From Anolis carolinensis (lineage: Eukaryota), in assembly GCF_035594765.1 (NCBI RefSeq), contig NC_085845.1, positions 126,310,897-126,374,896 of the forward strand: 64,000 nt of DNA. The letters run 5' to 3'. Under the pieces are notes generated by a model that was given only the letters and a program-made list of their open reading frames with translations, did not search any database and was not told the DNA's origin. Shown one piece after another: positions 9,893 to 51,364 of the stretch. The stretch's first letter is position 1; each line of letters begins with the position of its first letter. Both the position numbers and the translations under genes were made by a program.

Positions 9893-10013
9893 AGGAGGAG
9901 CTGAGGAAGCTGAGAGAAGAAACCAATGCTGAAACATTGAAACAGGAGCTAGAAAAAGAACGCCTCAGGAGGATAGAACTGGAACAAAAAGTCAATGAAA
10001 TACTTAAAACAAG
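9893..10013 (+). CDS. GRAMD4: GRAMD4 coding exon (121 bp; EELRKLREETNAETLKQELEKERLRRIELEQKVNEILKT, coiled coil)
   Basis: Polypyrimidine tract + cag acceptor; AG|gtaaga donor. Confidence 0.95.
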
Positions 10014-22000: not shown

Positions 22001-22635
22001 GGAATAGAAGCATTCTATTCTTCTCCAGACATGCCAACAGTATTAAGTGATAAAATCTTGGGCATTTTTTCCTTTAATGCTAAAAGTTCATAGGTTGTTC
22101 AGCAACAGCCTACTGGCTGGGTTGCTATGAGTTTTCCGGGCTCTATGGCCATGTGCCAGAAGCATTCTCTCCTGACGTTTCACCCACATCTGTGGCAGAC
22201 ATACTCAGAGGTTTTGACGTCTGTGCGAAGCTAGGCAAGTGGGGTTTATATCTGTGGAAGGTCCAGGGTGGGAGAAAGAACTCTTGTCTGTGGGAGGCAA
22301 GTGTGAATGTTGCAATTGGTCACCTTGATTAGCATTGAATAGCCTTGCAGCTTCAAAGCCTGGCTGCTTCCTACCTGGGGGAATCCTTTGTTGGGAGGTA
22401 TTAGCTGGCCCTGATTGTTTCCTGTCTGGAATTCCCATTTTCTGGGTGTTGTTCTTTTACTGTCCTGATTTTAGCTTTCCTGTAGCTAAAAATGCATATA
22501 AAATTGATTCTATAGGGAGGATCAATGATTGGATTTCAACTCCTACAGCTTAGCTTTCTCTGCCAATAATGGTACCATACCAAACTAAAGCTCCCAAGAT
22601 TCTGTAGCAGTGAGCCATCTTGGATATTGTAAGGG

Positions 22636-22688
<53 letters not shown>

Positions 22689-25600: not shown

Positions 25601-28600
25601 TTGTTCCCTGCTTATACTGATCACAGCCTCTAGAGTGTTGTTAAAAGCTTCTGTGTGTCTCTTTAATTATGCCAGTGTCTCTGGATGAAATAATTGAGAA
25701 CTCTCTGGAATGAGAGGAAACAATGCAATTTGACATACAGTATGTGCACAAAGAATAAAAGTGTCAGCTTTAGTTTATTTAATATACATTCAGACAACTC
25801 ATAATTCTTACTAGTTTTATTTTTGGACCTATATAGCATCTTAGCTCTGTATAGGAGTAGTTTTATATCACAACTTTATTTGATATTTGTGCAGAGCTGC
25901 TAGTGTGTATGATATGCAGATTGCTCCTTTGTAGCAAGTGTACCACTCTCCCTTCTCATATTTAAACTAGCCTGAAAGAATTAGTGCTAATTGATACTAT
26001 CAATATGTCACATTTTCCACATTATAGTTTTTTATAGTATCTGGTGTATTATTGTTGTTGTTTTGTTATTATTATTATTTTATTATTTTATTAGTATTAG
26101 AATTGTATTTTAGCACTGCTGTCTTACTGGCATTTTTATATGCATTCCACAGTTTAAAAAAAAAGCTTCTCAAAGCAATTTCCAAAATAAGATTTAGTAT
26201 TTGAATGTAGCATTAAGCATTTTCAAAATAAGCCATTTTAGAACCAAGTCTGCATCTGATATGCCAGTAGTTCATCTGTCAAAAGAGATATTACATTTTC
26301 AAACATTTACTTTCCAGACTCACAGAAAATATGAGAAGATTAAGTAAGTATCTAACCTGATATTTGTGTAATACAATTTTATACCATGTAAACAAGTGTG
26401 AGTGACATTGAAGTAGGTGTTGTAGCAATACAATCAATGCAATTTTGTTATCTCACAATCATGCAGACAAAGAATGTAGGTAGAACAAGTACCTTAAATT
26501 AAAAATAATTAAAATCTGCAATATTATAGAAATTTAATATGTAAAAAGGATATAAAGGCAATTTTTGACATTAATAGGTAACTCATACAATTTTTAAAAT
26601 CTTTTTGCAGCATATATACTAACAGTAATAATTAATCCAGTTCAGAATACAGTAGAGACGCGCTTATCCAACCTTTGCTCATCCAACGTGCAATCTGCCT
26701 CCTGCCCAGATCCACAGCTGTTTTTTTAGGCAGCAATGAACAGCAGGCCAACACACCCAAAAATAACACAAGTGCAGCCACGCTCCCAAACAAGTAGCAG
26801 ACTTGTTGTAAAACATGATGCTTTGGTGCTTAATTTGTAAAATCATAACATAATTTGACCTTTCATAGGCTTTTCCTTAATCCATCCTTATCTAACATTT
26901 TTGCTTATCCAACGTTCTGTTGGCCTGTTTATGTTGGATAAGCGAGACTCTACTGTAATTCAAATGATTTCCCAATTGTGGTACAGTAGAGTCTCACTTA
27001 TCCAAGCTAAACGGGCCGGCAGAAGCTTAGATAAGCGAATATCTTGGATAATAAGGAGGGATTAAGGAAAAACTTATTAAACATCAAATTAGGTTATGAT
27101 TTTACAAATTAAGCACCAAAATTTCATATTATACAACAAATTTGACAGAAAAAGTAGTTCAATACGCAGTAATGTTATGTTGTAATTACTGTATTTACGA
27201 ATTTAGCACCAAAATATCACGATATATTGAAAACATTGATGACAGAAATGGCTTGGATTATCCAGAGGCTTGGATAAGCGAGGCTTGGATAAGTGAGACT
27301 TTACTGTATGTTTAATAGTAATAGAAGCTTGAAGTCACTTTAATATATTTATGGTAATTGCACTCCCAGACCCAGTGTGTTCATCATGATCTTGGGTTTA
27401 TCCTGGTTTATAAGTAACCATCAAACAACACTTTCATGGTTTCAAAGTCATGCACAACTTGGCAGTAAACCAAAATAGAATAAAATGTAGGTATGTGAGA
27501 AAAAGAGGGAAGGAGAGATGAAGGAGAAGAAGTATTTCTGGCATTGATAAAAAATGGTTGGTCAGTGAGTTTGGGATATCTAGACTTGGTCTTTGGCCTT
27601 TCATAGTATTCTTGAATACTATGCAAATTAGGGAGTTGCAGGTCTTCCGGTTGGTGAAATTCCACTAGTTATCTTGAACTTGTGCCTATCCAAGTGATGA
27701 CCTTTGGCTCTTTATATTGTACTTTTTGTGAAGAAAAAGAACAATGAGTATGCTGTTCACCCCCATGCTCTTCCTGTTTCTGTGTGATATGCAAATCTGG
27801 TTTCTATTTAACCATAGAAGTTGCCACCCACAATTGTTTGCTTTAATCAAAGTAACAAAAAAGTGCCATACTCTGTAAAACCAAAGAAAAGTAGATACAC
27901 AATGCTACTATTTTGTCCTTTAAACAAAATCTCTAAAATGTGTTGGTGCTGTGGGGAAACTGGTCCTTTGTTTACAGTGGACCCATGATATCTGCTGGGG
28001 CTTGGTTTTGAATACCAACATCTGGATGTGCAAGTCTCATTTAATGCAATTGTGTTTGTGTCCTTACCTAAACTAGCAAAATCAAGGTTAGCTTTTTGGA
28101 TTTGAAAAAAATGCATTTTCAAGCCATGGATGGTGAAATCTGGATACAGAGGACTAGCCGTACAGTAGAACTTGATAGCTGTATAAGCATCATAAATGCT
28201 GATATAAAACAAAGATGGTATAAAGCAGATCCTAATTGGGCATTGAGAGAATAGATTTTCAATGAAGTAATCTGTGAAAATTAACACTGTACTTCTTTTT
28301 ATTGAATGAAGTCTTGTTGCTGTCTTCTCAGTCTAAGTCCTAATTGTTCCGAAAACAATGACAGAACATGTGTAGGTATAAAACAGAGAAGAGATATAGA
28401 CCATCAGATTCCCATATTTACTAGTAAAAGTGTTTGGAAATCTTCATTTTTTGGATGAGAACTTCCAAAAACACCCAGCAAATATCGCCGAGGGATTCTT
28501 TAGTTTGGTGAGAGGAGAAATCTAAACAACCTGGGTTTCTGGCTGAGAGATTCTGGGAATTGCAGCCCAAATTTGTTTTTCAAGTCCCCAAGCAGCCAAA

Positions 28601-31600
28601 CTAGAATGGTCTGGTTATGTTTCATCCCCCCCCCCCCCCAGCAGAAATGATCTCCAAGAATTGGGAGTTGCATTAAATTAATCTGAAGTTGTCAAACTTC
28701 TACAGTGAGGCATCTCTCACTACAAGAACAGGAAATATGACATTGCCTTAATAAGTTCCCACCCATTCCTTATGAATTTGAATGTGACGTGAACTATTGT
28801 ATACACTCTTGCACTCTTGTTATAAGGCTAGATCCACTTGACAATGTGGTTTCAAAAAAGTCTATGGAGAATCTTCAGTTATGCAACATGATAATTCCCA
28901 TGAATAAAATGAATCAAAATATCACTTTTTTGTTACATACAGCAAATTGTCAGTTAATTGGAACCCATGAGGATTGGTACTTGCCAGAAAAATGTAGTTT
29001 ATGGTTTCTTGAGAGTTACTATTAAAATGTGTCTAATCAAATTATCTCCCATACTATACCATACTGTAAACTCTGTATTGACTTGATATTCATACTAAAA
29101 AACAGTAATTAAAAGCAAGTTAAGACAAATAAAGACAAACTTAACTTAATGTAATACAGTTTTACTGTATTATACATGTATTTCAATTTTTTAATTTAAA
29201 GTACCAGCTTTGGTGTCTCGCGATGTTTGGGTTAAGTATTTGGAAAGAATAAACATTAAACATAGTAATTGTTTGTTGTTGGATTTTATGAATGATTATA
29301 TTAGAAAATGAATAAAGATGTGGGTGAACTACAACTTCAGTCATCTGTATACACTGCACTGGTAGTTTAAGTTGGTCATGATGGGTATGTGTGCCAAGTT
29401 TTTCCAGATCCATTGGCAGTAGGGTTCACAGCTGAGTTCACAAGTGATGTATCAAAATCTTTTTTAATCCTCAACATTCGTATTTTTTAAACATGTAGCA
29501 TGGATCAATTCCCCCCTCCCCAACCCCTCCAGTATTTTCTGTTGTGGTTGTCCGGGGCCGGGGGGGGGGGGCTGTAATGTCTGATACAGATCCATCATCA
29601 GTGGGAGGCATAGGTCTCTCTGGATGTGTTTTCCACATAGATACATATATATTTTGACTTTTATTTATATAGATTATTTCTTCAACTTTTTGCGAGTGGC
29701 TTGAAAGATCTGGTTGCTTGAGTTACACTTAACTAAGAGTCTGCTGTATGTTTACAAAAGATAAATGCTGAGGATTAAAGCGGATTTTGATACATCACTT
29801 GTGCACATAGGGATGTTGACATATTTAGGCATCAAGTCTTGGCTTATGAGGGGATGGGTTTTTCTTTTTCAATTTAAATCTTGTAATATTTTATTCTTTA
29901 CAGTATAAATACTTAGTACTGTGAATTTCTTTTCCTTTCTACCTAGAGAGAGGTGCCAAACCTGTTACAAATTTTGTGAAGAATCTTTCTGCCTTATCAG
30001 ACTGGTTTTCTGTCTACACTTCTGCTATTGCCTTTATTGTAAGTTGCCATTCCTCTATCAAGTGAAATATGTTTTTTGTTCAGTATGGTTTTTTGCTCAG
30101 TTTACAAAAACGCTTTGTGAAAACCGTTTGTTTTTCTAATTTTAAATGTGGCTGCCAGACTTTCTAAAATAAATGCACATTATGATCTTAGTCTTGTTCA
30201 GTTTCTGAGATCTATTGAGACAAATGATCCCAGAAGGCAACAGCTTGCTTAATTTGTTGTGTAATATTTCAGTGTTTTCATATATTTGCAACATTTTCTT
30301 AAAAGCTGTTTAAGTCCTCTGTATTGTTTTCATGTCTATGTCATAGAAACTGATTATTTTTTTTAAAAAAGTAACACATTTTCAACACTACTAAAGGTAA
30401 CATATGGGGAGACTTTTAATAGGGAATATTATCCTACACTTTAATAATTTTTACAACTGTGAATTAATGGGTAACCATTGTTCAATCTTTTATGGAGTTA
30501 TTAAAATCAACACAAATCAAAGTGGAGGAGAATTGGGTGGGCCTTGGACTGATGCTAGTATCTTAGCTGCCTGACATGTTTCCAGTTAAGGAAGAAACAA
30601 TTGTACCCAGTTGACATTGTGTTTGAGAAGCACTGCATTAAATGTCAAATTAGGATATGGCTCAACATCTAGACAACTAGGAAACCTAATCTTTGTCACC
30701 TGGAGAATGGGACCTGGGAGGCAGACTTTGAGCTTTCATTTTAAAAGAACGGGTCTGTCCTTCTAATAAAACGAGAGGCAAAAAATGAAATGTACAGGCA
30801 GTGTTATAATGAATCTGTGAAAAGTGAATCCATTTCCTATCAGTGTTTTAGTCAATGGTTGAGATCACAATTATGATTCACACGTACATGTTATATGCTT
30901 TCAAATTGAATCTAACTTTGGGTGTCTTATCACAAAATTTCCTATGCAAGATTTGTTAAGAAGGGATTTGTTCAGAGTGTGATGTGCTCAATGTGAGCCT
31001 CCATGGCTGAGTATGGGTTTGAACTCTGGGTGCAATCCAACACTCAGGCTGCTGCACCATGCTGGAGAACTAGAGTGACAAAAATTCACTCCCAGACATG
31101 GAATAATTACAGTGGTTCTGTTATGTGAGACTTGATATAGATATTAAAGATGGGTGTATTTATGTCAGAAATTACTAACATGGAAATATAGTTGTGATTA
31201 AAGTGGATGGCTCAGTCCACATGTATTATTTTGGATCCAGAAAATGGATCTTGACATCTCTGGTTGTAATAGTTGCTGCGGCTTCTGTTCATTACCTGGC
31301 TGTTCTACATGAAAGATTAAAATATCCCAATCTATAATACTTAACTAAGGATAAATGTCAAAGCATATATAGAGAGAGAGGGGGGGGGAGAGGGAGGGAG
31401 AGAAGGAAGTATTGTAGTAATGTTTTGTTTCTTTTATCTTTAGATCTACATGAATGCTGTATGGCATGGCTGGGCCATTCCTATGTTCTTATTTTTAGCA
31501 ATTTTGAGGTTATCTCTAAATTACCTCATAGCCAGGTAACCATGCTTTCTTTTTTCTTTTCTTTTCTTTTTTTTACTATTTTGAGATTTAACTTTGCAAC

Positions 31601-34600
31601 TATTTCTTACTTTTTTGCTTTAAAAAGGAGAAAATATGTATCAATCAGTTTGCCAGGCTTTGACGGCCTTGCAGAAGGAGAACCTCTTAAACAATGGAGG
31701 TGGCATGACTCCACTGCTCCTTTGACTTGTGGGCAGTCTTCAATATGCTGAACACAGATGAGGATTATGCTTCCATGTGTTATCATTACTATTCTTTGAA
31801 TTCGCGTTTTTGAAATGTTCCTCACCTCACTTTGTGCATGTTAAAGTCCTCATGCTTTGTTAATTGCAGACAGACATCCTTTGTAGTCTCCTTCTACCTT
31901 TTGAAGATTCAGGATTATATGATTAATGTGTGACTTGATTGTGTAGAAATACTAAAATAGATTTGAATAGATTGTTTTGTATCCACAATAATTGCTTTTA
32001 AACAAGCATACTTTTGTTCCAGTTTTGTAGAAAAGCCAATTTTTCAGTTTATTAAAATATTGTTTATTTTTAGAGGATGGAGAATACAGTGGAGTATTGT
32101 GCCTGAAGTTTCTGAGCCCATTGTAAGTCAAAATAATTTTGAAACGTTGAGAATTTTGATATGAACATTGCAAAGCATTATAGAATCACATCTTTTTGAT
32201 GTGTACTTTTCTAATTCTTAGAATAAACTACATTAGTATTTTAATATAATTAGATTATATATAATCTAATCTAACATAATTAGATTATATTAAAGAGATT
32301 TATGTCTTAAATGCATCCTTTTATATTTCTTCTAAAAATCCAGATAATCTTCATTTTAGAAAGTAAAGCTGAAGAATAATGTAATATTTAAATCATTGTT
32401 TATAGCAGTGGTTCCCAAATTTATTTGGCCTACTGCCCCCTTTCCAGAAAAAATATTACTCATGGCCCCCTGGAAAGGGGGGCGTGGCTTAGAGGGGTGG
32501 TTGTGGCTCCTGCTCAAGAGGGTGGGGCTGGGCCTCTCCCCTAGTCCAAGATGCAGGGCTGGGAGGGGGAGGTGGAGGTGGGTGGGTCTCAAATGGGCAG
32601 CCAGGACTGGGCGGAGTTAGGAGCTCTGAGGCAGAGCTGAGCTTCTATCCCTGTCCTGTGGTGCCTAACAGGACACAGGGGGCGGGGCCTTTTCCCAAGT
32701 GCCTGATGGGGCTGAGCCTCTATTATTGCGCCAAAATGCTAATGTGTATATATGTGTGTGTGTAAAGAAATCCTTGCAAGAGAGCTCTGCAAAAAGGGAG
32801 CTGATTTTTTTTTGCAGAGGCAAAGCCACGCCTCAAACAATGTATCTTTTTGATGCAGGTGGCTGGGAATGTCAGTTGGGATTTGAGCTTGCTAGAGAGC
32901 ACAGGAAAAAGAAGGCTCTCTGAATAGCTACGGTCAAGTAGCTGATTAATATGCTATGCTGTATATATATTGATGCTGATTGATTAGTTATTGATCTTAT
33001 GCAACTACATGGACATTATATGATTGCAGAACTGTTTTGTATTTCAACTCTACAAGCAAGTTTCCTTTGTTCATTTCATTTCCTCTGCCTGGCCTGAGTC
33101 TTTTGCACATGGTGTTATCTGGATGCTACTGATTCCGCTATACTCTCACCTGGCAACATCTATACCCCTCCCTGTGTTGTAATAAGCGCCTCAGGGGAGG
33201 TATACAGAGGCTCAGCCCTGTCTCGCGCTCTTGGAAGACGCCGCACCCTCACCCCAGCCCCGCCCTAAAAGGCCTCTCAGCAGAGGTATAGAGGCTCAGC
33301 CCTGTCTTGGACTCTTGGAAGGAGGCCCCGCCCCCTTCCCTAGCTCTGCCCTCTGTGTCCCAACAAGCGCCTCAGGAGAAGTATAGATTCTCAGCCCTAT
33401 CTCGGGCTCTTGGGAAGAAGACACACCCCTCCCCGGCCGCTCCCATGTCCTAATAAGTGCCATCACTGCCCCCCTGGATCAAAATTCTGTAAATTAACAG
33501 TGTATTGGTTTGGGCATAACTTTAAATTCTCTCAGATTTCTTCTCTTTTTCTCTGGAGCAACAGAACTTTTGCTTCCATTTGTAAATAACAGAGATAGAA
33601 CCGGCTAAACTAGACCCATACATTTCTATAAGATTGAGGAATACAGAAGTAGAATACAAAATGAATGTCTCTTTGATCAACTTAAGTGAATTGTCATATC
33701 AAATATGAAAATATACACAAACAAGGAATTTGTTTAAGTAATATATACATTTAAGTCATTCATTTTTATGAATAACTTATTACTCTACAATAGGTAATTT
33801 TTCTGAATTGTTTATTGCGCAAGTATATACAATTAAATAAGATTGGCCAATACACATTTTGGTGCCTCTACCTATTTGGGTATATTTGACCTACTGAATG
33901 CAAAAAAAATGGCTCCAGATCCCCTCTGTTAGCTCTAGTTTTTGAGATACAGAACACATGCCATATACCAGTTGCCATCTGCTTACGCATAGAAAATCAT
34001 GATAACCATATCTAAGAAACTAGAGCTGATGCGGTCTGTCTATTGCAATTTTCTGAATCAACTCCTCAAATAACCCCAGGAACAGACCTCAAAACAAAGA
34101 CACCAAGAAAAAAATGGGGGGGGGGTAGACTGTTTAATTACATCAATACAGTCATTTAAATACTCAGTTTAAAAAGTATGTCATTCTTCCAGGATTCTCA
34201 GAGAAGCATGCATAACCCTATATAGAATACACTGTGATAGTATAATAGTTCAGTCATGTGTAATGCCCTCATTGTTGTCTTTATATCACTACAACCCCAT
34301 GGATTTCTTTAAACTGAGAGTTTATGACTCACCCAAACAAGGAAACTGAATGCCTGAATGTAGGTGTGAACTCAAGTTTACTTCTACACTATAACTGCTG
34401 CATATTTTTACAGCTAATGAAAATCTCTGTATGAATGAGATTAATTTAGTCAGATCTCTGTAACAGAGATTTAATTGTTACTGTGAATTTGCCTCTGGGA
34501 TTCAAAAGGACTGATTTAAAATTAAGATGTGGATTATAAATAATGTTCACATACTCAGGCTATATTTGAACACAAAACTAATTATTATGTGAATAATCCT

Positions 34601-37600
34601 TTGTGGATCTCAGGGTCGTGTGCTCTCCCCCCCCCCCCCCGGGGGGGGGGGCAGCCACAATGAGTCAGAAGTGTTTGTTTCATTTGTTAACCAACCAATT
34701 GAATATTGTGCTTATCCCAACCTGTCAAACTGTGATTAATCTTAAATATAGATTATCGAAACAAGCCATCTTCAGACCTTGGCTAATGAAGTTGGCTAGC
34801 TTTGTAAACCAAAGTTAAGAATAACCATGATCTGCATGAAAGTAGTTCACAAAGTATTTTTGACTGGCCTTAAATTGTGGAAGAAATATCTTAATCTAAA
34901 AGGTTCAAAATTCATATATTAATCTTTTTTCAGGAACCCCCAAAGGAAGACCTAACTGTGTCAGAAAAATTCCAGCTTGTTCTGGATGTGGCACAAAAAG
35001 CACAGGTATGTTATCCCTGGCATCTCCAGCCACAGAATTGTGAGTCAAAAATATTTTTGCTGAAGAATACTTCTGTCCATGAGAATGAAGACTGGGATAC
35101 TCATTATTATTATTTCGTGTCAAAAGCAATGCATCAATAAATAAGTATAAAACTGATAAAATAAAGGTAGCACAAGCAGCTAAACAATTTTAGACCAAAA
35201 ACAGACAACAGCAACTGCATTGTCTGTAGCTTTAAACAGTTCTTCCTCTGTGTATGAGGCAGGGCATTGTAGGCAAGCGCACAGATGCTGAGTTTGTTCT
35301 GCTCCACAGTAACACAAGGTGAAGGATTCTTCTAGGAAGTGCCATTTTGTTAGGTTGTCTTTTGATCTGCCCATTCTGCTTCTGAGTCTGTTTAGGGACT
35401 TCCAAGTTGCCCGTTCTTGGTTTGCCCCTGGAGGAAGACCCTCATGGGGGGCCATCCAGTTGGAATTATCTGATTTTGCTGCCCACAGGAATATACTTGC
35501 TTTTGCTGGAGTAACATTTAGAGGAGTGGTGGTTCTCGTGAAACAGATTCTGATAGCCATACAGTGGGTGGCTTTCACAGTGTTCAACCTTATTTTTCTC
35601 GCAATTGGCAGCAACTTCCCGTTGCCCATCTGGGTGGGGCAATGCCAGCTAGCTTATAAATTCTATCAATGGGTGTAGGTTTAAGGCATCCTGTGATTAT
35701 TCTACATGTCTCCTTCAGTGCTATATTCACCTGCTTCGAGTGGGCAAATTTACATCAGATGGGGCAGGCATACTCAGCAGTTGAGTAAGACATGGCCAGG
35801 GCTGATGTTCTTATTAATTTTGGGTCTGCACCCCATGTGCTATTACTAAGTTTCCGCAATATGTTATTGTGTGCAGCTACTTCGTGCTTGGGACAGTGCT
35901 TCCTAAATGTCAGTGTGTGACTCATTGAAAAGCAGTTTCATATGTATCATATTGGATGTTTTCTCTAGTAGTAGAAAAGTTATACAACACAACAAATGTA
36001 GTTTTAGGATTTTATCTTTGTTTTCTTTTTATTTGATTCATAGCATGGCTTTTTCCAAGGAGCTCAATACATTACACATAGTCCTCTTTTTTATTTTAAT
36101 TTCACAAATGACCTAAAATTAAAGATCTGAAAAGATTTTTGGAGATTGTCACTAAAAATTGTGATTAGAAGTGATGTAATTTCACTTTCAGCACACATGG
36201 ACATGATGCAACCAGTGATGGCAGAATGTGGGACAAAAATTGATCCTATCTCTAATGCAGTTGCCCATCCTGGTGTCTTCCTTTGATATTTGAGATAATA
36301 TCCATCCTTTGATCTCAGTCTAGGAGAAAACTAGCATGGATCTAAAGAACCTGTGTTGGCCTTGAAATAATCTGGGCATAATCTGATATTTGAAGCTCTT
36401 GCTCAGGGTCTGCTGTGATGCGATTTTTGGTTCCTCTGGGCTAAAGAACTATACATGTTTTTATGAGCTATGAAACAAGCTGCACTCTTTAATGGGCTAT
36501 ACAGTTCACTTTGTATTACTGTTTTTTTCTCTCAGTTTGATCACCCATCAATATGTTTTGATGTGGTGCGTCTTAGCTAGCCCTCATCTGCGACATGAAG
36601 CTAAAAATAATTGATTATGGAGCTAAAAAATATTGGGTGACTCAGACCAATTACGTCATATAGAAAACAGAAATACATAAATGATTAATCTCTAATTATA
36701 TTTACATTCCAAATTTACATTATTTTTTCTTGCTATACAGAACTTGTTTGGCAAAATGTCAGACATACTGGAAAAAATTAAGAAGTAAGTATTTTTCTGT
36801 TTCTTTTTTCTTTTCCTAACAATGCATGAATTCAACAGATTTGAGATGTAAGGCATTGAACTGCTGTAATGTCTAACTTTTTTTCTTTCCTTTTAACAGC
36901 TTGTTTATGTGGGTCCAACCTGAAGTAACACAAAAGCTGTATATTGCTTTGTGGGCAGCGTTTATTGCATCTTGCTGTATTCCATACAGGATCATAGGGC
37001 TTTCACTGGGTAAAGCTATATTGATTTTATAGTGTATATACTTTTTAATTTTATAATTTAACGTTAGATACAGAATCTTTGGATATATAGGACCAACTGT
37101 GCAATGATGGGGTGTAGTTGAAATTTTATTTATTTGTTTGTCCACAGTTTAATACCCATGGGATTAAACAGGAATCTACAATATACTTGATGTAATCAGC
37201 CCTATAGATAGAGTAGAACTACACTAAAATTGTATTGTTGAAGGCTTTCATGGCTGGAATCACTCGTGTGTTGTGTGGTTTCCAGGCGGTATAGCTGTGC
37301 TTTAGCAGCATTTTTTCCTGACGTTTCACCTGTATCTGTGGCTGTCATCTTCAATATCACAGATGCAGGTGAAATTTCAGGAGAAAATGCTGTTAGAACA
37401 TGGCCATACAGCCTTGAAACCACACAACACCCTACTGTAAAACTGCGTCTCCCATATATATTGTAGTGGATACAATATATACCTTAAGAAATAAATTGCA
37501 AGTGAGAGAAGATGCTTCATGCATCACCTACATGCTATACTTTTTCCTAACCCCCCCCCCCCCCCCCAAAGCATTTAAGGGTAAGAGTTCAAATATGTTT

Positions 37601-40600
37601 GCTACATTGTGGGGATTAATGGAATGAGAGAGCGATTTTATGAAGCAGTTTTGGCTTCTTGAATTCCCAAACCTAGATTATTCAGTTCCAGCTTTGATCC
37701 AGGGGTAAACCACCTTGGGGATACTAGTAAGGATGGTATAAGAGGAATGCCAAGATTTTGTCAAACTGACATTTTGCCAAACACCCATTTTTGTCTTTCT
37801 GCTTATCTAGGACTATATGCAGGAATCAAATTTTTTCTTATTGATTTTGTCTTCAAACGATGTCCAAGGCTACGAGCAAAGTATGACACTCCTTACATCA
37901 TATGGTTAAATTTACCCACGGATCCTCAACTTAAAGAGAGGGCTAATGCCACAGTGTCAAGACGGGTAAATACTTAATAATTTAAATACGATTTTAAATT
38001 ATTATAACAGATCACTATCAAACGTGGTTTCAGTGACTAGAGCACATGCAGGGAGGGATAGATATTGAGACTTGTATACATATTTTCATTTAAACTGGTG
38101 GTGGTTCATTCACTCTCTAACACACAAAAACTGTCAGATTTCTTGAAGTCATTGTTTTCATTGGAAATAAATAGAGCATCCTACAGAATAATTGTCTTTG
38201 CTGGAATTTTGCTGGAATTTGCAATGTGTTGGTAGTTTTTAGATAAAATAATTGAACTTGCCTTTTGAAAGCGTTGATAAAAACTTTAAACACTATAAGA
38301 AATCAATTCAAAAGTCCACACACAAAAGGAAAAATAAAAATGATGCAAGCAGTGTCTTGTTAACATCTTTGATTGTTGCCCTTGTAGCTACGGCTTCCTT
38401 AAACTAGTCACAAACTTATGTTCTGTAGCAGTTAAAATAATACCTTAAAATTCCATGTTATAAAGTGCATAGCAATCGCATACATTCTCAGAAATCATAA
38501 ACCTGCTTTAACAAGCCTAAATATACTTGTTAGTCCAAAGTAGAGTAGTCCCATTGAACAATGGGGAATTAGTGTAAATTTCTATTTGTTTTGTGTGCCT
38601 GCTGCAATTGAGAAGAATAGTTGGGTTAGGCCTACAGTGCCAAATATTTATGAAAATCACTGATCCTTTGAAATCAATGCTACCCAACCTTTAATTCTTA
38701 AAATGTGGTTGGACTAAGTGGAATGGGGAACCTCTAGAACAGGAAATTACTGTTCACTGAGCAGCTTTCTACTTTGGTCTGAAAGTAGAATGTATTTTGT
38801 CAAAAAGTGAGGCATGGAGCTACAAGATGCAAACTCAAATATTGCCTCCAGAACTCCTTTATGAAGTTATGTAAAGACTACCAACCGATATGTAGTCATA
38901 GGATGACGGTTATTGGCCTAAAGTCATTGAACCCTTTCCAAAACATTCAGGCTGCATCTTGAATTGATTATTCTATGGAAACCTATGGTTAATCTATGTT
39001 GATTGCCTTGAATTCAGTTTAAATAGTCACAACAGCAATCCTACTGAATGCAGGTTATCTGTTTAAATGTGCAATTGATATTGAAGGGGCCCTGCAATTG
39101 AAACACTTAAAATTTCAGAAAGGCTATACTTGTATTCTCGTTTCAGAGGCACCTATTTTCTCTATCCAAAGGATCTTTTTCATCTGGAGGAACCTCAAAA
39201 TGTGCTTTATAGCATATATGGCTATACCTTATACCAGTGGTAAATTGTGGTACCAGAAAAAGACAGATGCTTTTGTCCATAGTCCTTAATACTGAAGTGG
39301 CAGCTGGAGCCTTCCATGTTGATCAGGTTGTGAATTGATTCCAGATTTAGTCCCAACTGACTGGGAAATAGGATTCATCTCCTTGAATAGCTCCTTTAAA
39401 ATCCAGACTAAACTCTAATCTAGATTAATTGCCATAGTAGCAAGAAAACCGCTAGCTCCTGCTGTCAAACTTTCTTTTCCTAATTTTCAAATTGGCATCA
39501 GACATTTAACCAATTGAGCACTATGAACATATGCATCAGTCCTTTTCTTCTCGTTTAACTGTTTAAAATAAATTATGAACAGTTTGAATTGAAGTATCCC
39601 AAAGTAATTTTATCTAGTATTTCCTCAGTTCATAAAAATCATAAATAATATTAAGTGTGAATTGTATCCATACCTTTTAGAGGCAAAACCCTCTTTAAAA
39701 ATAGTACTATAGATCTCACCAGGGAAGATTGGTATCAACCACTTTCATGAATCAGTTTTGTTTTAGCTTTCACAATATAACTGGAAATGTTATTAAATAT
39801 CGCTTTTGAAGCCAAATAGGCCAGGCAACAGAAATGGGAATTCTAGTCAGGGAAATATAATTTTAATGAATGAAAATGATGTGCTCTAACCACTGATACG
39901 TTGGATGTTTTTTTATTTAAAGATTGTAATCATTGTGTGTAATCTCTTGGTATGTGAGAAAGATCTGGCAACTTCACTCAATTCATGTTTTTATTCTGTA
40001 TATGATAGCTAAATAGATTTTGCTTTTTTCTTTTGTCACTGTCACATTTGTGTTTGTTTGTTTTTTCTTTTCCTGCTAGCTGTCAGGGCATGAAAAGGTA
40101 TGGATCTTAGCGTGGAACTACTTCTTCCTTTCAATTTGATCATTTGTGCTCATAATGATCTGATGTGTTTCTTCTCTGTGTGTGTGTGTAAGCTTGTGCA
40201 TTTATCTAACTGATCTGTATGTGTGTATGTGATATTAAATGGCTTGGACTTTAAGTCTCTTGGAGACACATAGTTAATGTTCTTCCTGGGCGTATTCCTA
40301 CTAATTGATTGATCCTGAGTGGTGTACTATTTTGACATCTAGTTGAAGGAATTCTCTAGTGTGCTTTGGGAAAACTAATCTAGATGCTTCTTTAGGAAAT
40401 GTTTGATGCAGACAAACAAAGAAGTCTTTGTCTTCAAAGCATAGCATTGAAATAGGACAAGGACAGGCAACGTGTTCTTCACGTGTCCCATCCTGTGGTG
40501 GCAGACCCTGCCAGATTCCTATTCTCCTATTTGCCACAACTAGAACAGGAAAACAAACCACCATTTTTCTTTAAAACTCGGTCTGCAGGAAGAACACACC

Positions 40601-42216
40601 TTGTTTATAAGCACAGTCACATTCTGGGGAGCTTCCCAGAAGCAGAATTCTGCTTAAAAACAAGGGGTACCCTCTTATTGTACCTTGTTTAAAAGAAAAC
40701 TATGGTTTGTTTTGCAATGTTGCTGTCTGTTTTGTTTGTTTAGGGTTCTGTCTTCAGTGGTTCTGGGGAGGGAATACCTGCTCCCCTTTATCCTCGCTTG
40801 CAGTATATTAATACTATTTCCAACCTCCCATGCATGTAGGTATCCTAGAATGTATTTACAGTATCATACCTAATAGTTAACGCCTAAATATTCCAAAGGA
40901 ACCAGATTTTGCTTGTTCTTGGAAGCTAAGCAGAGTTGCCTTGTTTAGTGCTTAAATGAGAGACCTCTCACAAATATCACACACTACAGGTTATAGTACA
41001 GAGGAAGGAACTGTCAAAAACCTATCTATGAGTATTTCTTGCCTATGAGAACCCTATGAAATTTGACAGGTTGCTTGAAGTCACACGGTCATTAAAAACT
41101 GAGCAGATCTTAGCCTCTTCCTTCCTGGATGGAACCTTGCCTGAGAGCACCATGTAAAAGTATTTATTCTGTTATTAAGTTTGATATATGGCTTTCCAAT
41201 CCAGTTTATCAAGGTAGCTTAACAGTAAAAGTTAAATTAGATTTGGCTGCCCATTTCCTCAGTCTTGCAACAACCTCACTAATCAGAATAACGAACAGCC
41301 CATTTCCTGTTTTCCCGGAGTTTAATAATTAAAAAAGCATTTTTCTATAATTTTCGCATCTTTCTATGTTTTTTAAACATGATTTCACATCTGACAGGTT
41401 GTTGATTTCCCTTTCATATCAGTCTTTTCAAAACACATGGAGTGCCTTCCAGAAAATCCCCAAACTTTTTTTTAGCAGGGAGAGGCTGTGCATAGTGCCG
41501 TCACTAGATCAGAAGCTGAAAGGCTGCTGGGTTCATGTAGTGTTTGTATCACAGCTGATATTTATAAAAAGAAAAATAGTTACATCATAGAACCTCCTGA
41601 AACTTCATTTATAGCTGAGATAATAATGTAGGGAGGCCTTGGTTAAAATAAAAACCATGAAGAGAATCTGGTATTTTAAAAATTGGTATTTTCAAGTTAC
41701 ATTGGAATCTGTCTTCATTATATTCTGGCTCTCTTTAAGGTGTTTGCAGTCTTCACACTGAACAATGAACTTTTAGTACTTAATCTCATCTTGCTGTAAA
41801 GCAGGGGTTCTCAAACTTCTTCAGCCGAAAAGCCCCTTTTCAAGCAAAAGTTTCTTGTGGAGCTCCAAGAAATGCCTATATATTATATTAACTATTATAT
41901 AATGTATATATATCAGGCACGGACAAACATTTGGACGCATTGCATTTTAAAATTTGACAGATGGGACGGGCCAGTGGCAGATGGATGGAGAGTATTTTTG
42001 TGAACTAATTGAAAAAAATGAACAAATTCCTATGCACACTGCACATAGAAAAAGAATGAAAGAACCATACAATATTTTAAATTAAAAACAATTTTAACCA
42101 ACATAAACTTAACAGTATTTCAGTGGAAGACCTCAGAGACCATCAATTCCAACCCCTTTCTGCCATGCAAGAAAAGCACAATCAGAGCACCCCCAGCAGA
42201 TGGCCATCCAGCTTTT

Positions 42217-42252
<36 letters not shown>

Positions 42253-45200
42253 ATAGTAACAGCAACAACAGAAACCCCAGGGGCTATCCAGTTCAATCCC
42301 CTTCTGCCATGCAGGAAAAGCATAATCAAAGCACCCCCTGAGTGGTGGGAAAAAAAATATGGTTTTGGAAGCAGGGGGAGGAGCTGGAAAGAGGAAGGGA
42401 AGCTTACACACACATATGGCTGGAGTTACACTGACAAAATGTCCCTTTCCGACTTACATATACCTTCAACTTAAGAACAAATGTGCAGAACCTATTTTGT
42501 TCGCAACTTGGGGATTGCCTGTACTGTGATTCCACTCTTAACTGCATGGCAACATCTTACAAACCCTACAATTTGCAGTTTCGGGAGAGGAATTTAGAAT
42601 TCACAGCCAGAAGGATTTAGTGTCCCATGACATACAAGCCTCAGAATTCCACAGAATGCAGCCATGGCATTAAAGTGGAATCATCTCATTATAATTGTTA
42701 AGTGAGAAAGAGCCATATGTACAGGCAGTTGAGATTTTTATCTCTAGCTCTCTTGTAGAGGACCATTCTAACATGCAATTCAGTAGCCTGCAGTAAGAAC
42801 TGATAAGAGTTCTTTGTGTGTATATTGTTACCAATTACAGCAATATAGAACATAGGGTGGTGAAGCCTGCAACTATCTTATGATTTAACTTTCTAGTAAT
42901 AAACACCCATTTTGAAGGGTAAAGGCAGCGTGTTTGTCCAGTGGAGGCATAAGATCGCTTTGTGCAATGCATGCATTTAATTGTATATTAATAATAATTC
43001 AAATTTTATTTCCCTACAGCTTCAAACAGCAGCTTCACGAAGTTGTGTAGGCTCGAGTGCCCCGGCAGGAATCAACAGAGAGGAAGAGACTAGCCGTTTT
43101 CATACCACTAAGAGAGGCAACTTCCATGAAGTATTTAATCTGTCAGAAAATGAGCGTCCTTTGGCAGGTATTGATCTGAATGCAAAAGGTGGTGGTGCCT
43201 TCAATGGAAGCATGTTTAAAAAGAATTGTGCAAAGAGCAGCAGTATTTGGAAATGAACTGCACTGTAATGTTATCTTCTGCTGGGTTCTATGGACAGGAG
43301 GTCAAATTAATCTTTTATCTGATATCCATAAGATTCTCTGGGTGAACCTGATGCCCATAGCCTGGTTTGCCTTTGTGGCAGCATGAATTTGAGAGGGGAG
43401 GAAAGGTGCATAATCCTGAGAGAGAAGTAACTTAACCCAAGGCTTGAAACAAATACTTCAGTGTTTAGAAAAGCTTTGTCGGCACTTCTGAGTTTTTGTG
43501 GCTGTGTGAAATATAATGTGATTGTGCTATTTTGACAGTGTGTGAAAATGGCTGGCGGTGCTGCTTGATTAACAGAGACCGGAAGATGCCCACAGACTAC
43601 ATCCGAAATGGTGTGCTTTATGTTACAGAAAAGTAAGTCGTTGTACAATTTTCAGCAGAATCTTAAGAAGCCAGGGGGGTTGGGGGCAACTTGGAACAAG
43701 AGGATAATTTTTTTCTAAATTGTAAGTAGTGAAAGTTTAGTGTGAACTGTGAAATTGCACTGAACCAAATACCAGGTGATGTCGTGTTTCCCCAAGGTCT
43801 TGGTTACCAGGGCATAAAGCTTACACAAATTAACGGTCAGCTTGAATCAAGAATTCATTAACAAAATCTCAACTATCAAGTCCTTTAAAGTTCTGCTGGA
43901 AAGCAGAAATACAAACCTCAAACAGAGAAATAGGCTAAAGTCAAAGTCAAATGCCAGATGTATGCATAAGTATTGTTGTGGCATATTTATTTGTGTCTGT
44001 TTTTTTCTGCTAAAAATCTTAACTAAAAATGTTGGGGGATGGGGGGTGGACAGTCAAATGCCAAGAATATTTTCAACAAATGGGAGTCAGAGTCCAAAAG
44101 ACAAATGTTGAGGATTCATATTGTGGTTCCAAGGTCAGATGGCAGGGTTTCTTGCAGATGAAGTCAAGGTCACAGTCAAAGGCCAGAGATTCTGACCACA
44201 AACCAGAATCAGAATCCATAAATTCCACGTCAGGAAGTCAGAGCAAAGGATTCAGGATACAAACAGGGCCAAAACCAGATTTCAGGAATTGAGGTCAGAG
44301 TCACAAAGTCAGGAATATCGGGAGTTCTTAGAGACAAAGCAAGGGGCAGCACAGCCAAGGTCTAGACCAGTGGTTCTCAACCTTTGAGTCCCCAGGTGTT
44401 TTGTCCTACAACTCCCAGAAATCCCAGCCAGTTTATCAGCTGTTAAGATTTCTGGGAGTTAAAGGCCAAAACATCTGGGGTCCCACAGGTTGAGAACCAC
44501 TGGTCTAGAACAAAGATACAACTGAGCCAAAATTAGAGTCCACAAGTTAGAAATGCCAGGAAGCCTTGAAATAGAGGAGCAGCAGAACCAGGATCTGGAG
44601 CCAGAATACAACAGTTGTCTGCTATCAAGAACCGTTCTTCCCCAAGCACTTTTATCATAAGGTGTCAGCTGCTGCTTATCTCAGCAAGCCTTCACAGCTT
44701 GATACTTGCCTTGAGAAGGACGTCAGATCAACCCCTTCCAAGCTTGCTCCAAATACTGTAAAGTGTCAGTTTCCTTCACAGTAGCTGAGCCAGGCCAGAC
44801 AAGCTGCTGATCCTTCAACAGTAGCTGAGCCGGACAGACAGACTGCAGACCATGTCAAGTGACTGAAAACAACCGTTTCCTATAAGCCAGTGTAAACATA
44901 CATTTATATATCTATATTTAAAAGGATCCTTTACAACAGGGGTCCCCAAACTAAGGCCCGGGGGCCGAATGCGGCCCTCCAAGGTCATTTACCTGGCCCC
45001 CACCCTCAGTTTTATAATATATTTTTATATCAGTTTTAATAATATAATATATTGCATATACATATAATATTGATAATAATATTATGTTATACAATATAAT
45101 ACTAATAATAATACCATATAATAATATTAATTATATGTTATATATTGCATATTATATAATAGTATAGTGGTATAGTTCAATATAGTAATATATAATTCTA

Positions 45201-48200
45201 ATATTGTGCTATGCTAATAATATAATATATTGTATGTACATACAGCTGCTCTGAGTCCCCTTCTGGGTGAGAAGGGTGGGAAATAAACATAGTAAATAAA
45301 TGCAGTAAATAAATAATTAATTTTAGACTTAGGCTCGGCCAAAGTCTGAAATGACTTGAAGGCACACAACAACAACAATCCTAATTAACTTGACTATCTC
45401 ATTGGCCAGTAGCAGGCCCACACTTTCCATTAAAATCCTGATAGGTTTATGTTGGTTAAAATTGTTTTCATTTTTAAATATTGTATTGTTCTTTCGTTGT
45501 TGTTGTTGTTGCACTACAAATAAGACATGTGCAGTATGCATAGGAATTTGTTTGTATATTTTTTTCAAATGATAAATCGGCCCCTCAACAGTCTGAAGGA
45601 TAGTGGACCGGCCCTCTGCTTTAAAAGTTTGAGGATCCCTGCTTTACAAGAAAAAAATCTGCATACGTCTAGATAACTTCAAATGAGTTTGGAAAAGATT
45701 TTCTCATGGGAGCATCAGATCAATTGACCTTTTGTTGAAAGTGTACAAATTCACAATTAACATGTGGCAAATGCCTCATGAAATAGTAACAATGTAAACT
45801 TAATGGGTCAGAAAAGAAGCACTGGGAAGTGCAAGTGTAATTGTTTATCAGTTGATCAAATTATGATCTCTCTCTAGAGCAGGGGTCCCCAAACTAAGGC
45901 CCGGGGGCCAGATGCGGCCCTCCGAGGTCATTTACCTGGCCCCCGCCCTCGGTTTTATAATATAATATATTGTATATACATATAATATTGATAATAATAT
46001 TATAATGTAATACAATATAACACTAATAGTATTACCATAGAATAATATTAATTATATATTCTATATTACATATAATATTACTAATAATATTACAGTATAG
46101 TGGTATAGTCCAATATAGTAATATATAATGCTAATATTGTGCTATGCTAATAATATAATATATTGCATGTACATATAATTTGTAAGCCACTCTTGAGTCC
46201 CTTTTGGGGTGAGAAGGGTGTGATACAAATGTAGTAAATTAATGCAGTAAATAAATAAATAAATAAATAAATATTTTAAATAAATAAATAAATAAAAACA
46301 TTTTAGACTGAGGCTCGCCCAAAGTCTGAAATGACTTGAAGGCACACAACAATAACAACAACAATCCTAATTAACTTGACTATCTCATTGGCCATAAGCA
46401 GGCCCACACTTCCCATTGAAATCCTGATAAATGTAGGTTGGGTTAAAATTGTTTTTTATTTTTAAATATTGTATTGTTCTTTCATTGTTCTTATTGTTGT
46501 TGTTGTTTTTGCACTACAAATAAGACATGTGCAGTGTGCATCGGAATTTGTTTGTATTTTTTTTTTCAAATGATAATCCGGCCCCTCAACAGTCTGAAGG
46601 ATTGTGGACCGGCCCTCGGCTTAAAAAGTTTGAGGACCCCTGCTCTAGAGTAAACAAGTTAGGGTTTGATACAGAAATAAGGAATCGTGTCTGGATTTCT
46701 GCAGTTTCGTAGTGATGAGCAATGCTTCAGAACTCAGAGCTGGTGAAACTCAGTCTTTTAGTATGATAATATGGTTTCAGAAAAGATCCCCAAAATATAA
46801 TACTCCCTTAAGGCATACTTTTTTTGCACCTGTGTACAGGCATTTACAACCCAGATACTTTCAACATGAGGTATAGGTAGTTTTCAGGTTTTTCTGTTTA
46901 GCAACTATAACATCTTTATATAGCTAGGCCAATTTTATACTGAATCGAAAATCCAGCCTCTGTATAATATGAAACACAGCAAAGACAGATCCTCTTCAGG
47001 AAGCACTTCCTTACAGTTGCTAATGCTGTTTTTAGCTGGGCCCATAAGGTAGCCCATCATTAATATTCTCTTGGTCTCTCTCTCTCTCTCTATTTGAAAA
47101 TACTGGAGATATCTCTTTGCAGAAAAAACCCCCCAAAAAAGATTATTCTTTGTTAAAGAGGCAAGCCTCACGTCTTCTCTTAGCTTTATTCCACCAAAAA
47201 TGGCAGAATTGCATGTCTGAGTGCTTTTTATAGCATTTTTCAAACTTTAAAACATTGTTGCAGCTTGCAAAGACATTATGGTGATGTTTGACTCTTGGAT
47301 CTTCCTCTTTTGTTTTCTTAACAAAGGAAAAATGTATGTTTGGAAATATTTTAAAAATACCGAGCTGACGTGTTTCTATCATAACTGCATGTATGTTTTT
47401 ATGTTACAATGGTGTATATTTTGTAGAGTTTAGATGTTCAGTTCAGTGTAAAAATATGAAAGCAATGCTTTTTTAAAAAAATCCAGAAGTTTAATATCTT
47501 TTTGATTAACATAGGTATTCATGCCGCTGAAAATTAGAACATGAAGATAAATGTATGATTTCAAATGATTTGTTTTATAAGTGGTTCTTTTTTTTCTTTT
47601 TAGTTACTTATGCTTTGAAAGTTCCAAATCTGGTTCATCAAAAAGAAATAAAGTTATAAAACTGGCAGATATAACAGATATTCAAAAGGTATGTTCATGG
47701 TATTAGGAGTTTTTTATCCTTTCATTTCTTTTAGACTTGAAGAAAAAGATAAGGCTTGAGTAATCTGTCACTTTTGTGCAAGTCCCAGCATTCTTCACCA
47801 TTAGAGTTGATGGAAATTATAGTTCAACCACAAGTTTCCTACACCAGCTCTAATATTTCATCATTATTTTAAATGGTGTTTTGTAACCTTAAATTTTCAT
47901 GCGGACTTATGTGGCAAACGGTCCCATTGTGTACTATTTTACTTAAAAGTGATCAAAATGTATTTTAACGTTCACTTTAAAGTTCTTAATGCTTACAGGA
48001 CAGTGCCCGGAACTTCGAAAAATACAGTTGGGAATATGTATTTAAAACTATTTTAGGTACCCAAAATGTCAGGATTAGGTCTTTTGTAATGATAGAGTTT
48101 TGAAATTGCCATAGTTTGGTTTTATGATTATCAGTGGTCCCACATGGCTTTCTGGATGTATGATACACAATGGTACTTGGAGGTGAGTGGACTACAGTTC

Positions 48201-51200
48201 CCATCATCCTCAATTACTCCTAAATCCTTGCCATTATTTAAATATGGTCATAATGAGTATGTGTGCCAAATTTGGTCCAGATCTGTCGTTGATCAGGTTC
48301 ACTCAGCTCTCTGGATGCGGGTGAACTACAACTCCCAATATCTTGGGTCAATTTCCCCCTCTCCCAAACCCCTCCAGTATTTTAAGTTGGTCATGATGGG
48401 GGTGTGTGCCAAGTTTGGTCCAGACCCATCATCTGTGGGATATACAATGCTATCCAGATATGGTCCAACTACAACTCCCAACAGCTTGTGTCTATCCCCC
48501 CAAACCCTTCCAGTATTTTAACTTCATCATAGTGGGCATATGTGCCAAGTTTAGTCCAGATCCATCGCCAGTGGGGTTCACAATCGTCTCTGGATATGGG
48601 TGAACTGCAACTCCCATCATTCAGGGTCCATCCTTCCCAGACCCCACCAGTATGTGAAGTTGATCATGGGGAGTCTGTGCCAAGGATATGCAAATTAGAT
48701 ATTTCAAATTCTAAAATAGAGGTAATTCTTTTTTTAATTAAATCACATCCATCCTGCTTTCCCAAAACCTGGAAGGTGTGGGTTTATGCCTATTCATGTG
48801 ATTTCCTGCTTCTTGGCGGGGGGTTGGACTGGATGACCCATGAGGTCTCTTCCAACTCTACTATTCTATGATTCTATATAGATTTCCTCAAGATTTTTGA
48901 GGAACCAAAAGATCTTTACTTTAAATAATCAGACAAACAAATCCCAGAGAAATGAAACCAGAGTCCACACCTCAAAAAATCTCTGCTATGTTGCTTCCCA
49001 GAAATATCTTCCTAGTAGGGCCTTGCTGGTGACATCGTTTTTGCTGATCAGGTGATGGGACCCCTGTTGTGACCTCATCAAAAGCAGCATCAGCCGCAAA
49101 GTTATTTTTGACCAATGGACCAATGACCGTAACCCCAGTGTGCTGTCAGCAAAGTGGCCATCTGGACTCAAAAGGGCCTTCAGAGTGTTCCTGTGCTGTA
49201 TCCAGGGTAGCTGCGGAGCAGAATACTCCAGATTAGTGTAGATGTAGCCTAGGTCATTCCCAAGCCTCATGCACCTTTTCAGAGCTTCTAATAGCTACGC
49301 CTTTAGGATACTGCCTTCCAGGTTTGTGGACAGTTCAGATCTGATTTTTTTCTCCAACCCATCTTAGCTTTTGGTAAACACTATTATTTATTTTGTATTT
49401 CTTTTTAGTACAAAGTATTGTCTGTTCTCCCAGGATCTGGGATGGGTATTGCAGTTTCCACACCATCTACACAAAAAGTAAGTACTCAAAGAGAAAAAAA
49501 TACTCATATTGGCAGCGCTATCAGTTTACACGTGTTTGAAATATTAATGATATGATGGTCACATCAGTTTTTGGAGCACTTCCTTTAACTTGAGATAATA
49601 AGGATTGTATTACTGAGTTGCACAGCATGCGTTCTATGATTAGCAACTCACGGGACTTTATACATTGTTTTCGGGGGGAGGGGGGTGTTTAATTTTTGCT
49701 GATATGTATGTGCCATTAGAACAATCAATATCACTAAGCTTAAAAAATTCAACAATTCACACTGATTCACTTGGTTGGTAATAAAAAAAGTGACAAGGTG
49801 ATTCATAGAAATTCGATGAGGAACCTGCTGATTATTACAAAGATTGAGTTACTTTCAAAATGGATGCCTGGGTTTATTTCCTCTTCCCTCTTGCTCCTAT
49901 TTTTCCATTTCCTTTTGTGTTATGTCTTTTAAAATATAAGCCTGACAGACATTCCCTCCTCCAAGGGTTTTACCTCTACATGTTTCCTTTCTCTTTGCAC
50001 CAAAGTTACCTAACTAACCTGTGGCAGAGGGGTTACCACTGGTTAGGTTGATAGAAGCCTGGTCTTTCATGGAAAAACAACTTGGGGAGTCAGGTTAGAA
50101 TACTGGGGAGTAGGGATGACATTTTTAAGGGGTATCAGGCCTTCGACGAGAGTAGAATCTTGGGCTCCAGTTATGTTAAAATTTAATATTTGATTAGTTG
50201 TTTCAGAGGGAGAAGGAGGCGTTAAAGAAGTGCCTCTGTTCTCACTTCTGCCGTTCTTCCCTTTTTCTTTGTCTGTAGGTTGCTTCTGTTGTCTCCTTCT
50301 AATCTAGTGGCAAAACCACCAGCTCCATGTTGTTCATTTCCCTCATTTATAAAGGAAAAACTTTGCTTCATCATGAAGTTGTTATGGGGTCTTCATGGCA
50401 AAGCGAAGTTTCTCCGTCACAAGCGAGGGAAATGAATGGTGCAGAGTAGTTGATAGTTTTTCCCTCTGAAGGAGGAGACGGAAGCAAAGACAAAGGAAGG
50501 GCAGAGGAGACAAGAACTGAGGAAGTGGGTTGCTGTGAGTTTTCCAGGCTGTATGGCCATGTTCCAGAATCATTCTCTTCTGATGTTTCGCCCACATCTG
50601 TGGCAGGCATCCTCTGTGGTTGTGAGGTCTGTTGGAAACTAGGCAAGTGGGGTTTATATATCTGTGGAATGCCAGAGTGTGAGAAAGATCTCTTGTCTAT
50701 TTGAGGGAAGTGTGAATGTTGCAGTTTGCCAGCTTGATTAGCATTTAATGACCTTAGAGAGAGATTCAAAGCCTGGCTGGAGCACTTCTTTTCCTCAGAA
50801 AAGGCTTCAACTTGCTATCCTGCTAAAGGGAGGTGGGGAAATCGAGGTTATTTCTCTTTGTTGCTTGATTTGAGGGAAAGTCACCCTGTCAAACCAAGAC
50901 TGAAGCGCTACAAACCTATCTGTGGCCAGAAGAGATTTAGCCTGTTTTAATTTCGGTCATTTACTGTTATCAATTTGTGCTGATCTGCTTTAAACAAACA
51001 GACCACTGACACATTGGGTTGTTATGTGGTTTCTGGGGCTGTATAGCCGGATCCTCTGAAGATGCCAGCCACAGATGCAGGTGAAATGTCAGGANNNNNN
51101 NNNNNNNNNNNNNNNNNNNNNNNNNNNNNNNNNNNNNNNNNNNNNNNNNNNNNNNNNNNNNNNNNNNNNNNNNNNNNNNNNNNNNNNNNNNNNNNNNNNN

Positions 51201-51294
51201 NNNNNNNNNNNNNNNNNNNNNNNNNNNNNTGTTTGACTTGTGATTTTTTGATATGAAATCCAGCATGTCTATCTTGTTTTCTGTGTCATAATAA

Positions 51295-51364
<70 letters not shown>

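What the first reader, a model, noticed from the sequence alone, without database searches (positions are those of the whole stretch)
40017..40310. Candidate unannotated 18-nt regulated microexon (LSGHEK) in GRAMD4
Seen: a ~60-nt AG-free U-rich tract (40017-40077), UGC immediately before the AG, then CTG TCA GGG CAT GAA AAG and donor AAG|GTATGG. The host intron is phase 0, so inclusion adds LSGHEK between ...VSRR and LQTAAS..., in the linker just before the GRAM domain. Flanks lack recognisable TEs and carry UG repeats (~40178-40230), ACUAAU (40300) and UGCAUG (40831). Knowledge: 3n microexons with strong pyrimidine tracts and upstream UGC are typical SRRM3/4 neural targets; ACUAAY and UGCAUG are QKI and RBFOX motifs. 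The peptide is absent from the canonical human sequence as I recall it. Inference: a tissue-regulated isoform switch.
Basis: partly seen in the sequence, partly recalled or inferred. Interest (0 to 1): 0.7.

Follow-up and report, generated by a model that had tools for sequence, protein, structure and literature searches.

The report
Ancient optional 18-base GRAMD4 microexon
A tiny optional 18-base exon in the lizard GRAMD4 gene is real and has been kept from fish to birds and some mammals, but public gene models already contain it; it writes a textbook protein-kinase-A motif into a linker, so it likely acts as a phosphorylation switch, which is untested, as is its tissue.

Summary
The exon is real: window 40080-40097, AG/GT, phase 0, encoding LSGHEK. 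It is not unannotated. The window's 17 exons translate to residues 122-610 of the Anolis carolinensis RefSeq isoform X2, which includes it; without it they give another listed isoform. An L-S-[GA]-x-[ED]-K insert sits at the same junction in gene models of gar, paddlefish, teleosts, amphibians, turtles, squamates, birds, echidna, donkey, warthog and camel. The zebrafish orthologue is in a published brain microexon table, with silent changes at the Ser and Glu codons. No fetched primate, rodent, carnivore or marsupial model carries it, and the mouse table lacks it. Skipping dominates in 4 of 4 informative contig runs. Inclusion creates the protein's only R-R-x-S motif, across the splice junction, 34 residues before the GRAM domain; I read it as a likely phospho-switch. 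Neural SRRM3/4 control is unproven: gramd4 is missing from a list of 708 zebrafish neural exons, and UGC also precedes 4 of 16 other acceptors. No paper found discusses the exon, and the scan had no earlier GRAMD4 note. Verdict: known in databases, function unstudied.

The parts
40080..40097 (+). 18-nt cassette microexon, LSGHEK, residues 440-445 of P0231
   Evidence: zebrafish orthologue
40017..40079 (+). 61-nt AG-free U-rich tract, UGC at 40074-76, acceptor AG at 40078-79
40098..40103 (+). donor GTATGG
37811..37965 (+). upstream exon; ends in the Arg-Arg that completes the R-R-x-S motif; phase 0
43020..43167 (+). downstream exon: rest of the linker and start of the GRAM domain
40177..40230 (+). 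UG-rich tract; role untested
40300..40379 (+). two ACUAAY (QKI-type) motifs, 203 and 277 nt downstream; conservation untested
40831..40836 (+). UGCAUG, 734 nt downstream; no more than chance
9893..52614 (+). host gene GRAMD4, 17 coding exons in the window (residues 122-610)

Best explanation
This is an already annotated 18-nt cassette exon of GRAMD4, shared across bony vertebrates and skipped in the main transcript, whose inclusion creates an R-R-L-S motif that likely serves as a protein-kinase-A-type phosphorylation switch in a probably flexible linker. Shown: the exon, both isoforms, skipping as the main assembled form, the conserved L-S-G-x-E/D-K pattern, and the new R-R-x-S formed by Arg-Arg from the upstream exon plus Leu-Ser from the microexon. 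Inferred: a minority of transcripts include it, most likely in neurons with partial help from SRRM3/4 at the UGC beside the AG (about even odds). Inferred: phosphorylation of Ser441 would change how the linker holds the GRAM domain against membranes or partners. Inferred: the exon has been lost or silenced in mouse and probably in primates, which would explain why human- and mouse-centred catalogues lack it.
For: The spliced window equals the end of P0231, and without the exon the end of P0234. Both forms are listed for several species, e.g. zebrafish X1/X2, echidna X1/X2, Crotalus tigris X1/X2. 135 of 135 six-residue inserts found without assuming their sequence read L-S-[GA]-x-[ED]-K; position 4 varies freely (H, T, I, C, Y, S), as do several downstream linker positions. 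Lizard and zebrafish share 14 of 18 nt, with silent changes at the Ser and Glu codons, which fits selection on the protein. Two unnamed divergent homologues (P0601, P0606) carry a six-residue LSESEQ at the junction: Leu-Ser kept, Gly and Lys not. [RK][RK]xS/T scan: the motif at 438-441 is present in P0231 and zebrafish P0259 and absent from skip forms P0234 and P0334. The insert lies 34 residues before the GRAM domain at 479-598, in predicted coil. The zebrafish exon was detected in brain RNA-seq, coverage 29 over 23 samples. Lead only: DreEX0035929, 18 nt, dPSI -16.9 on srrm3/4 loss, is the next event ID after gramd1a and gramd1ba, gene not named. The R-R-x-S consensus for PKA is recalled knowledge.
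Against: No phosphorylation, tissue inclusion or knock-out data were found. gramd4 is absent from 708 zebrafish neural exons and from all 18 supplements of the srrm3 retina paper. No laid contig shows inclusion in this species. The Arg-Arg is also kept in mammals whose models lack the exon, so it is not conserved for this motif alone. The final Lys codon is partly fixed by the donor consensus. One search was seeded with the insert's own words, which favours similar inserts, and the rows are redundant gene models, not species. Unrelated inserts of 12, 22 and 30 residues at this junction show that the linker tolerates much. The structure model is poor overall (mean pLDDT 47), so its coil is weak evidence of disorder. 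Only 5 of 175 mammalian models carry it, so many lineages may do without it.
Confidence: 0.45

Rival explanations
1. A muscle- or heart-biased microexon driven by QKI, RBFOX or CELF-type sites downstream rather than by SRRM3/4.
For: Two ACUAAY within 300 nt downstream against 0.13 expected, and a UG tract at +80 to +123. Absent from the zebrafish neural list.
Against: Detected in zebrafish brain. UGC at -6 beside a long pyrimidine tract fits the SRRM3/4 layout in 10.1101/2024.09.17.613571 (passages). The UGCAUG is at chance level. Conservation of the motifs could not be tested.
Confidence: 0.2
2. A regulated exon that works without phosphorylation: it lengthens the linker or adds a small binding surface, as shown for the DAAM1 linker microexon.
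For: Gly, the acidic residue and Lys are nearly invariant too, more than R-R-x-S requires. Linker-extension precedent in PMC12056172 (search listing and start of abstract).
Against: Pure length needs no invariant Leu-Ser. The divergent homologues keep Leu-Ser and drop Gly and Lys.
Confidence: 0.25
3. A near-neutral minor exon whose sequence is held by splicing signals rather than by protein function.
For: Skipped in 4 of 4 informative runs. Missing from most mammalian models. In zebrafish most single microexon deletions have little effect (PMC12626420, title and start of abstract).
Against: Kept from ray-finned fish to birds and mammals, with silent changes at constrained codons.
Confidence: 0.1

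Closest known systems
Annotated GRAMD4 isoforms: Anolis carolinensis XP_062838303.1 (X2), Danio rerio XP_009298731.1 (X1), Tachyglossus XP_038612176.1
   Same: The same exon at the same junction; the lizard protein matches the window letter for letter over residues 122-610.
   Different: Nothing in sequence. The models carry no statement on tissue, regulation or function.
Zebrafish brain microexon chr4 - 28072684-28072702 (PMC7821500, Table S4 row seen)
   Same: 18 nt, LSGCEK, in the transcript that also holds the 26-nt GRAMD4 exon.
   Different: Listed without gene name or discussion; no mouse partner in the pair table.
SRRM3/4-dependent neural microexons, e.g. the 12-nt exons of gramd1a and gramd1ba (PMC12626424)
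   Same: 3-27 nt, frame-preserving, conserved, UGC beside the AG, GRAM-domain host.
   Different: Those are switch-like neural exons (dPSI about 90) shared with human; this one is not on the list and is not seen in mouse or the fetched human models.
DAAM1 linker microexon (PMC12056172; listing and start of abstract only)
   Same: A conserved microexon that extends a linker.
   Different: DAAM1's is neuron-specific with a tested effect on actin; nothing is tested here.

Membership tests
Alternative microexon | 3-27 nt with AG/GT ends | tested here: met
   18 nt
Alternative microexon | both included and skipped transcripts exist | tested here: met
   skip joint in 4 of 4 informative runs; inclusion in gene models and in zebrafish brain reads; inclusion not seen directly in this species' contigs
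Alternative microexon | frame-preserving and conserved | tested here: met
SRRM3/4-dependent neural microexon | UGC between branch point and AG, long pyrimidine tract | tested here: met
   UGC at -6, 61-nt AG-free zone; but 4 of 16 other acceptors have a TGC and 3 have longer zones
SRRM3/4-dependent neural microexon | neural-enriched inclusion | tested here: inconclusive
   detected in zebrafish brain but absent from 708 neural exons; run tissues not given
SRRM3/4-dependent neural microexon | inclusion falls on loss of SRRM3/4 | tested here: inconclusive
   no gramd4 row; unnamed 18-nt event DreEX0035929 at -16.9 is only a positional candidate
SRRM3/4-dependent neural microexon | conserved flanking intron sequence | not testable with these tools
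   no other vertebrate genome was reachable
QKI/RBFOX muscle exon | conserved downstream ACUAAY or UGCAUG with muscle inclusion | tested here: inconclusive
   motif counts only
PKA substrate site | R-R-x-S/T consensus (recalled) | tested here: met
   created only on inclusion
PKA substrate site | accessible, disordered, cytosolic position | tested here: inconclusive
   coil at pLDDT about 27-36 in a model of mean pLDDT 47
PKA substrate site | phosphorylation observed | not testable with these tools
   needs mass spectrometry or a kinase assay

The most novel reading that the evidence does not exclude
A microexon as old as bony vertebrates builds a PKA site across a splice junction in GRAMD4, coupling cAMP signalling to this apoptosis and immune adaptor in neurons; mouse, and probably primates, lost it, while birds added a second splice choice at the same junction that also yields R-R-x-S.
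Probability: 0.2. Interest if true: 0.6.

Novelty: already known. Interest (0 to 1): 0.3.

Why it matters
As a sequence it is not a discovery: RefSeq and Ensembl-derived models hold it and a published table lists the zebrafish copy. Its value is as an unstudied case. It is a deeply conserved microexon that seems absent from mouse and human catalogues, and it makes one sharp prediction, an isoform-specific phospho-Ser. If confirmed, it would show splicing writing a kinase site across an exon junction, and it would give a natural loss experiment among mammals. It would change little of what is known about microexons as a class.

Tried and rejected
Loss in all mammals: my first reading; rejected by echidna, donkey, warthog and camel models. 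Loss in birds: rejected, 10 of 108 bird models carry it. Crocodilians: 0 of 6 models, too few to read. Chance splice-like site: rejected. Direct tissue test: one search listed no holder on record as RNA and gave no tissues. I laid 8 of its 24 runs. The second set (X6, X3, X12, X14) showed no cover even of the flanking exons, so it is no result. Contigs drop rare variants, so no inclusion does not show absence. Papers: GRAMD4 + microexon, 0 papers; GRAMD4 + alternative splicing, 26 papers, 25 listings seen, none on this exon by title or abstract start; GRAMD4 alone, 40 of 211 listings seen; searches gave nothing on it. Supplements searched for gramd4 without a hit: PMC12626424 (12 files), PMC12626420 (12 of 13 files), PMC9303857 (18 files), PMC7821500 (8 files, tables keyed by transcript; one further file too large to read). 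VastDB itself, bioRxiv supplements and subscription papers could not be seen and may list the event. RNA fold of 39970-40140: z 0.51, no special structure. The bacterial promoter scan is irrelevant here. Invertebrate-like representatives show no recognisable insert; no named shark or lamprey record was seen, so the origin is dated only to bony vertebrates. My hand-set exon borders were partly off; one search is the corrected table.

Full report
Observation. A filter whose thresholds I set after seeing the site passes only this place on both strands of the window. The region is single-copy in the genome from 39400 to about 40850. The single motifs are weaker than implied: 3 of the 16 other acceptors of the gene have longer AG-free zones and 4 have a nearby TGC; the UGCAUG is at chance level; the two ACUAAY within 300 nt compare with 0.13 expected.

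Identity and annotation. The upstream exon finds GRAMD4 (best 120 of 589 hits listed). Seventeen window exons, spliced in a script, equal residues 122-610 of P0231, the Anolis carolinensis RefSeq isoform X2 (XP_062838303.1, also UniRef A0A803TI07). Without the 18 nt they equal the end of P0234. The exon is therefore annotated, as an optional one.

Conservation. Of 573 proteins fetched up to that span the junction and reach the GRAM exon, 150 carry the insert. Without assuming its sequence, 135 of 135 six-residue inserts read L-S-[GA]-x-[ED]-K. Carriers by source name: paddlefish, gar, eels, zebrafish, percomorphs, frogs, salamanders, turtles, lizards and rattlesnakes; 10 of 108 bird models; and 5 of 175 mammalian models, namely echidna, donkey, warthog (two) and wild camel (id lists assembled by hand). 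None of the fetched primate, rodent, carnivore or marsupial models has it, nor 6 crocodilian models. These rows are redundant gene models, at most 15 members per cluster were listed, and one search was seeded with the insert's own words, so counts are not frequencies and absence is weak. Two unnamed divergent homologues carry LSESEQ at the same place; invertebrate-like representatives show nothing recognisable.

RNA evidence. In four contig sets from four study codes, guessed to be RNA and with tissue not given, the main contig joins 37965 to 43020 and skips the exon; none shows inclusion. A second four gave no exon cover. In PMC7821500 (passages and supplement rows seen) the zebrafish brain table lists an 18-nt exon on chr4 that translates to LSGCEK, coverage 29 over 23 samples, in the transcript that also holds the gene's 26-nt exon. 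It shares 14 of 18 nt with the lizard exon, with silent changes at the Ser and Glu codons. The mouse table of 2,987 rows gave only the 26-nt exon, searched by one transcript id and six 9-mers; other spellings are not excluded. The mouse-zebrafish pair table has no row for it.

Regulation. SRRM4 acts through UGC near the 3' splice site (PMC9303857, passage). A UGC was found in 74-79% of SRRM3/4-dependent microexons and is not strictly needed (10.1101/2024.09.17.613571, passages). The layout here fits. Against it, gramd4 is not among 708 zebrafish neural exons in PMC12626424 (supplement searched by name and by chr4 rows; cut-offs read; that the gene lies on chr4 follows), nor in the supplements of PMC9303857. 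One lead: in the source data of PMC12626424 the event DreEX0035929 is 18 nt, classed as non-neural, with dPSI -16.9 on srrm3/4 loss, and follows the gramd1a and gramd1ba events in ID order. The gene is not named, so this is a candidate, not evidence. I put a low-inclusion, partly SRRM3/4-dependent neural exon at about even odds.

Mechanism. The insert lies after the hydrophobic segments and 34 residues before the GRAM domain (479-598), in coil of low confidence in a poor model (mean pLDDT 47). The upstream exon ends in Arg-Arg, so inclusion yields R-R-L-S. A scan for [RK][RK]xS/T finds this site in the lizard and zebrafish inclusion forms and not in their skip forms. R-R-x-S is the PKA consensus (recalled). 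The Ser is present in all 150 inserts, its codon changes silently, and the divergent homologues keep Leu-Ser while losing Gly and Lys. I therefore commit to an isoform-specific phosphorylation site that tunes the linker, at 0.45 overall. Human GRAMD4 binds ITCH through residues 1-200 and TAK1 through 200-400 (PMC8597946, passages); which function the site would touch is unknown. Against this reading: the Arg-Arg persists in mammals lacking the exon, the junction accepts unrelated inserts, and nothing shows phosphorylation. The rivals are a non-phospho linker or binding role (0.25), muscle control by QKI-type motifs (0.2) and a near-neutral relic (0.1).

Comparison and novelty. It is a member of the class of alternative, frame-preserving, conserved microexons. 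It works like an SRRM3/4 neural microexon in layout, but membership is unproven. It is already in databases and in one published table. No paper in the searched library holds both GRAMD4 and microexon, and the listings show none on it; VastDB and closed supplements were not seen. Interest 0.3; the boldest reading has probability 0.2 and would deserve 0.6.

Noticed in passing
window 26318-26343: A second microexon of the same gene, 26 nt and frame-shifting if skipped; its orthologues are in the mouse (classed 'Included') and zebrafish MicroExonator tables.
   Followed up: partly
junction after window 37965, in bird proteins such as P0256, P0097, P0104: 23 of 108 bird models carry a conserved 12-residue insert (ASLYYSYPKSWM type) here, alone or before LSGHEK, which also gives R-R-x-S. 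It is probably a downstream donor; the Ser may simply reflect donor consensus. The lizard read-through stops after three codons.
   Followed up: partly
same junction, P0495/P0496/P0499 and P0214/P0216/P0217: Platypus models carry a 22-residue insert and Ahaetulla models a 30-residue insert, both unrelated; this intron is a hot spot for inserts.
   Followed up: no
P0601, P0606: Unnamed divergent GRAMD4 homologues, possibly a teleost duplicate, keep a six-residue insert LSESEQ.
   Followed up: partly
start of the exon at window 43020, in P0475, P0479, P0483, P0573, P0578: Some mammalian models lack the first two residues of the downstream exon, which suggests an alternative acceptor 6 nt further on.
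   Followed up: no
window 40550-40713 and 40882-41083: An imperfect self-inverted stretch (72%) and an old dispersed repeat (about 75% identity to many genomic copies) downstream of the exon.
   Followed up: no
window 40182 and 40235: Two substitutions in the downstream flank are shared by two contig runs, probably alleles.
   Followed up: no
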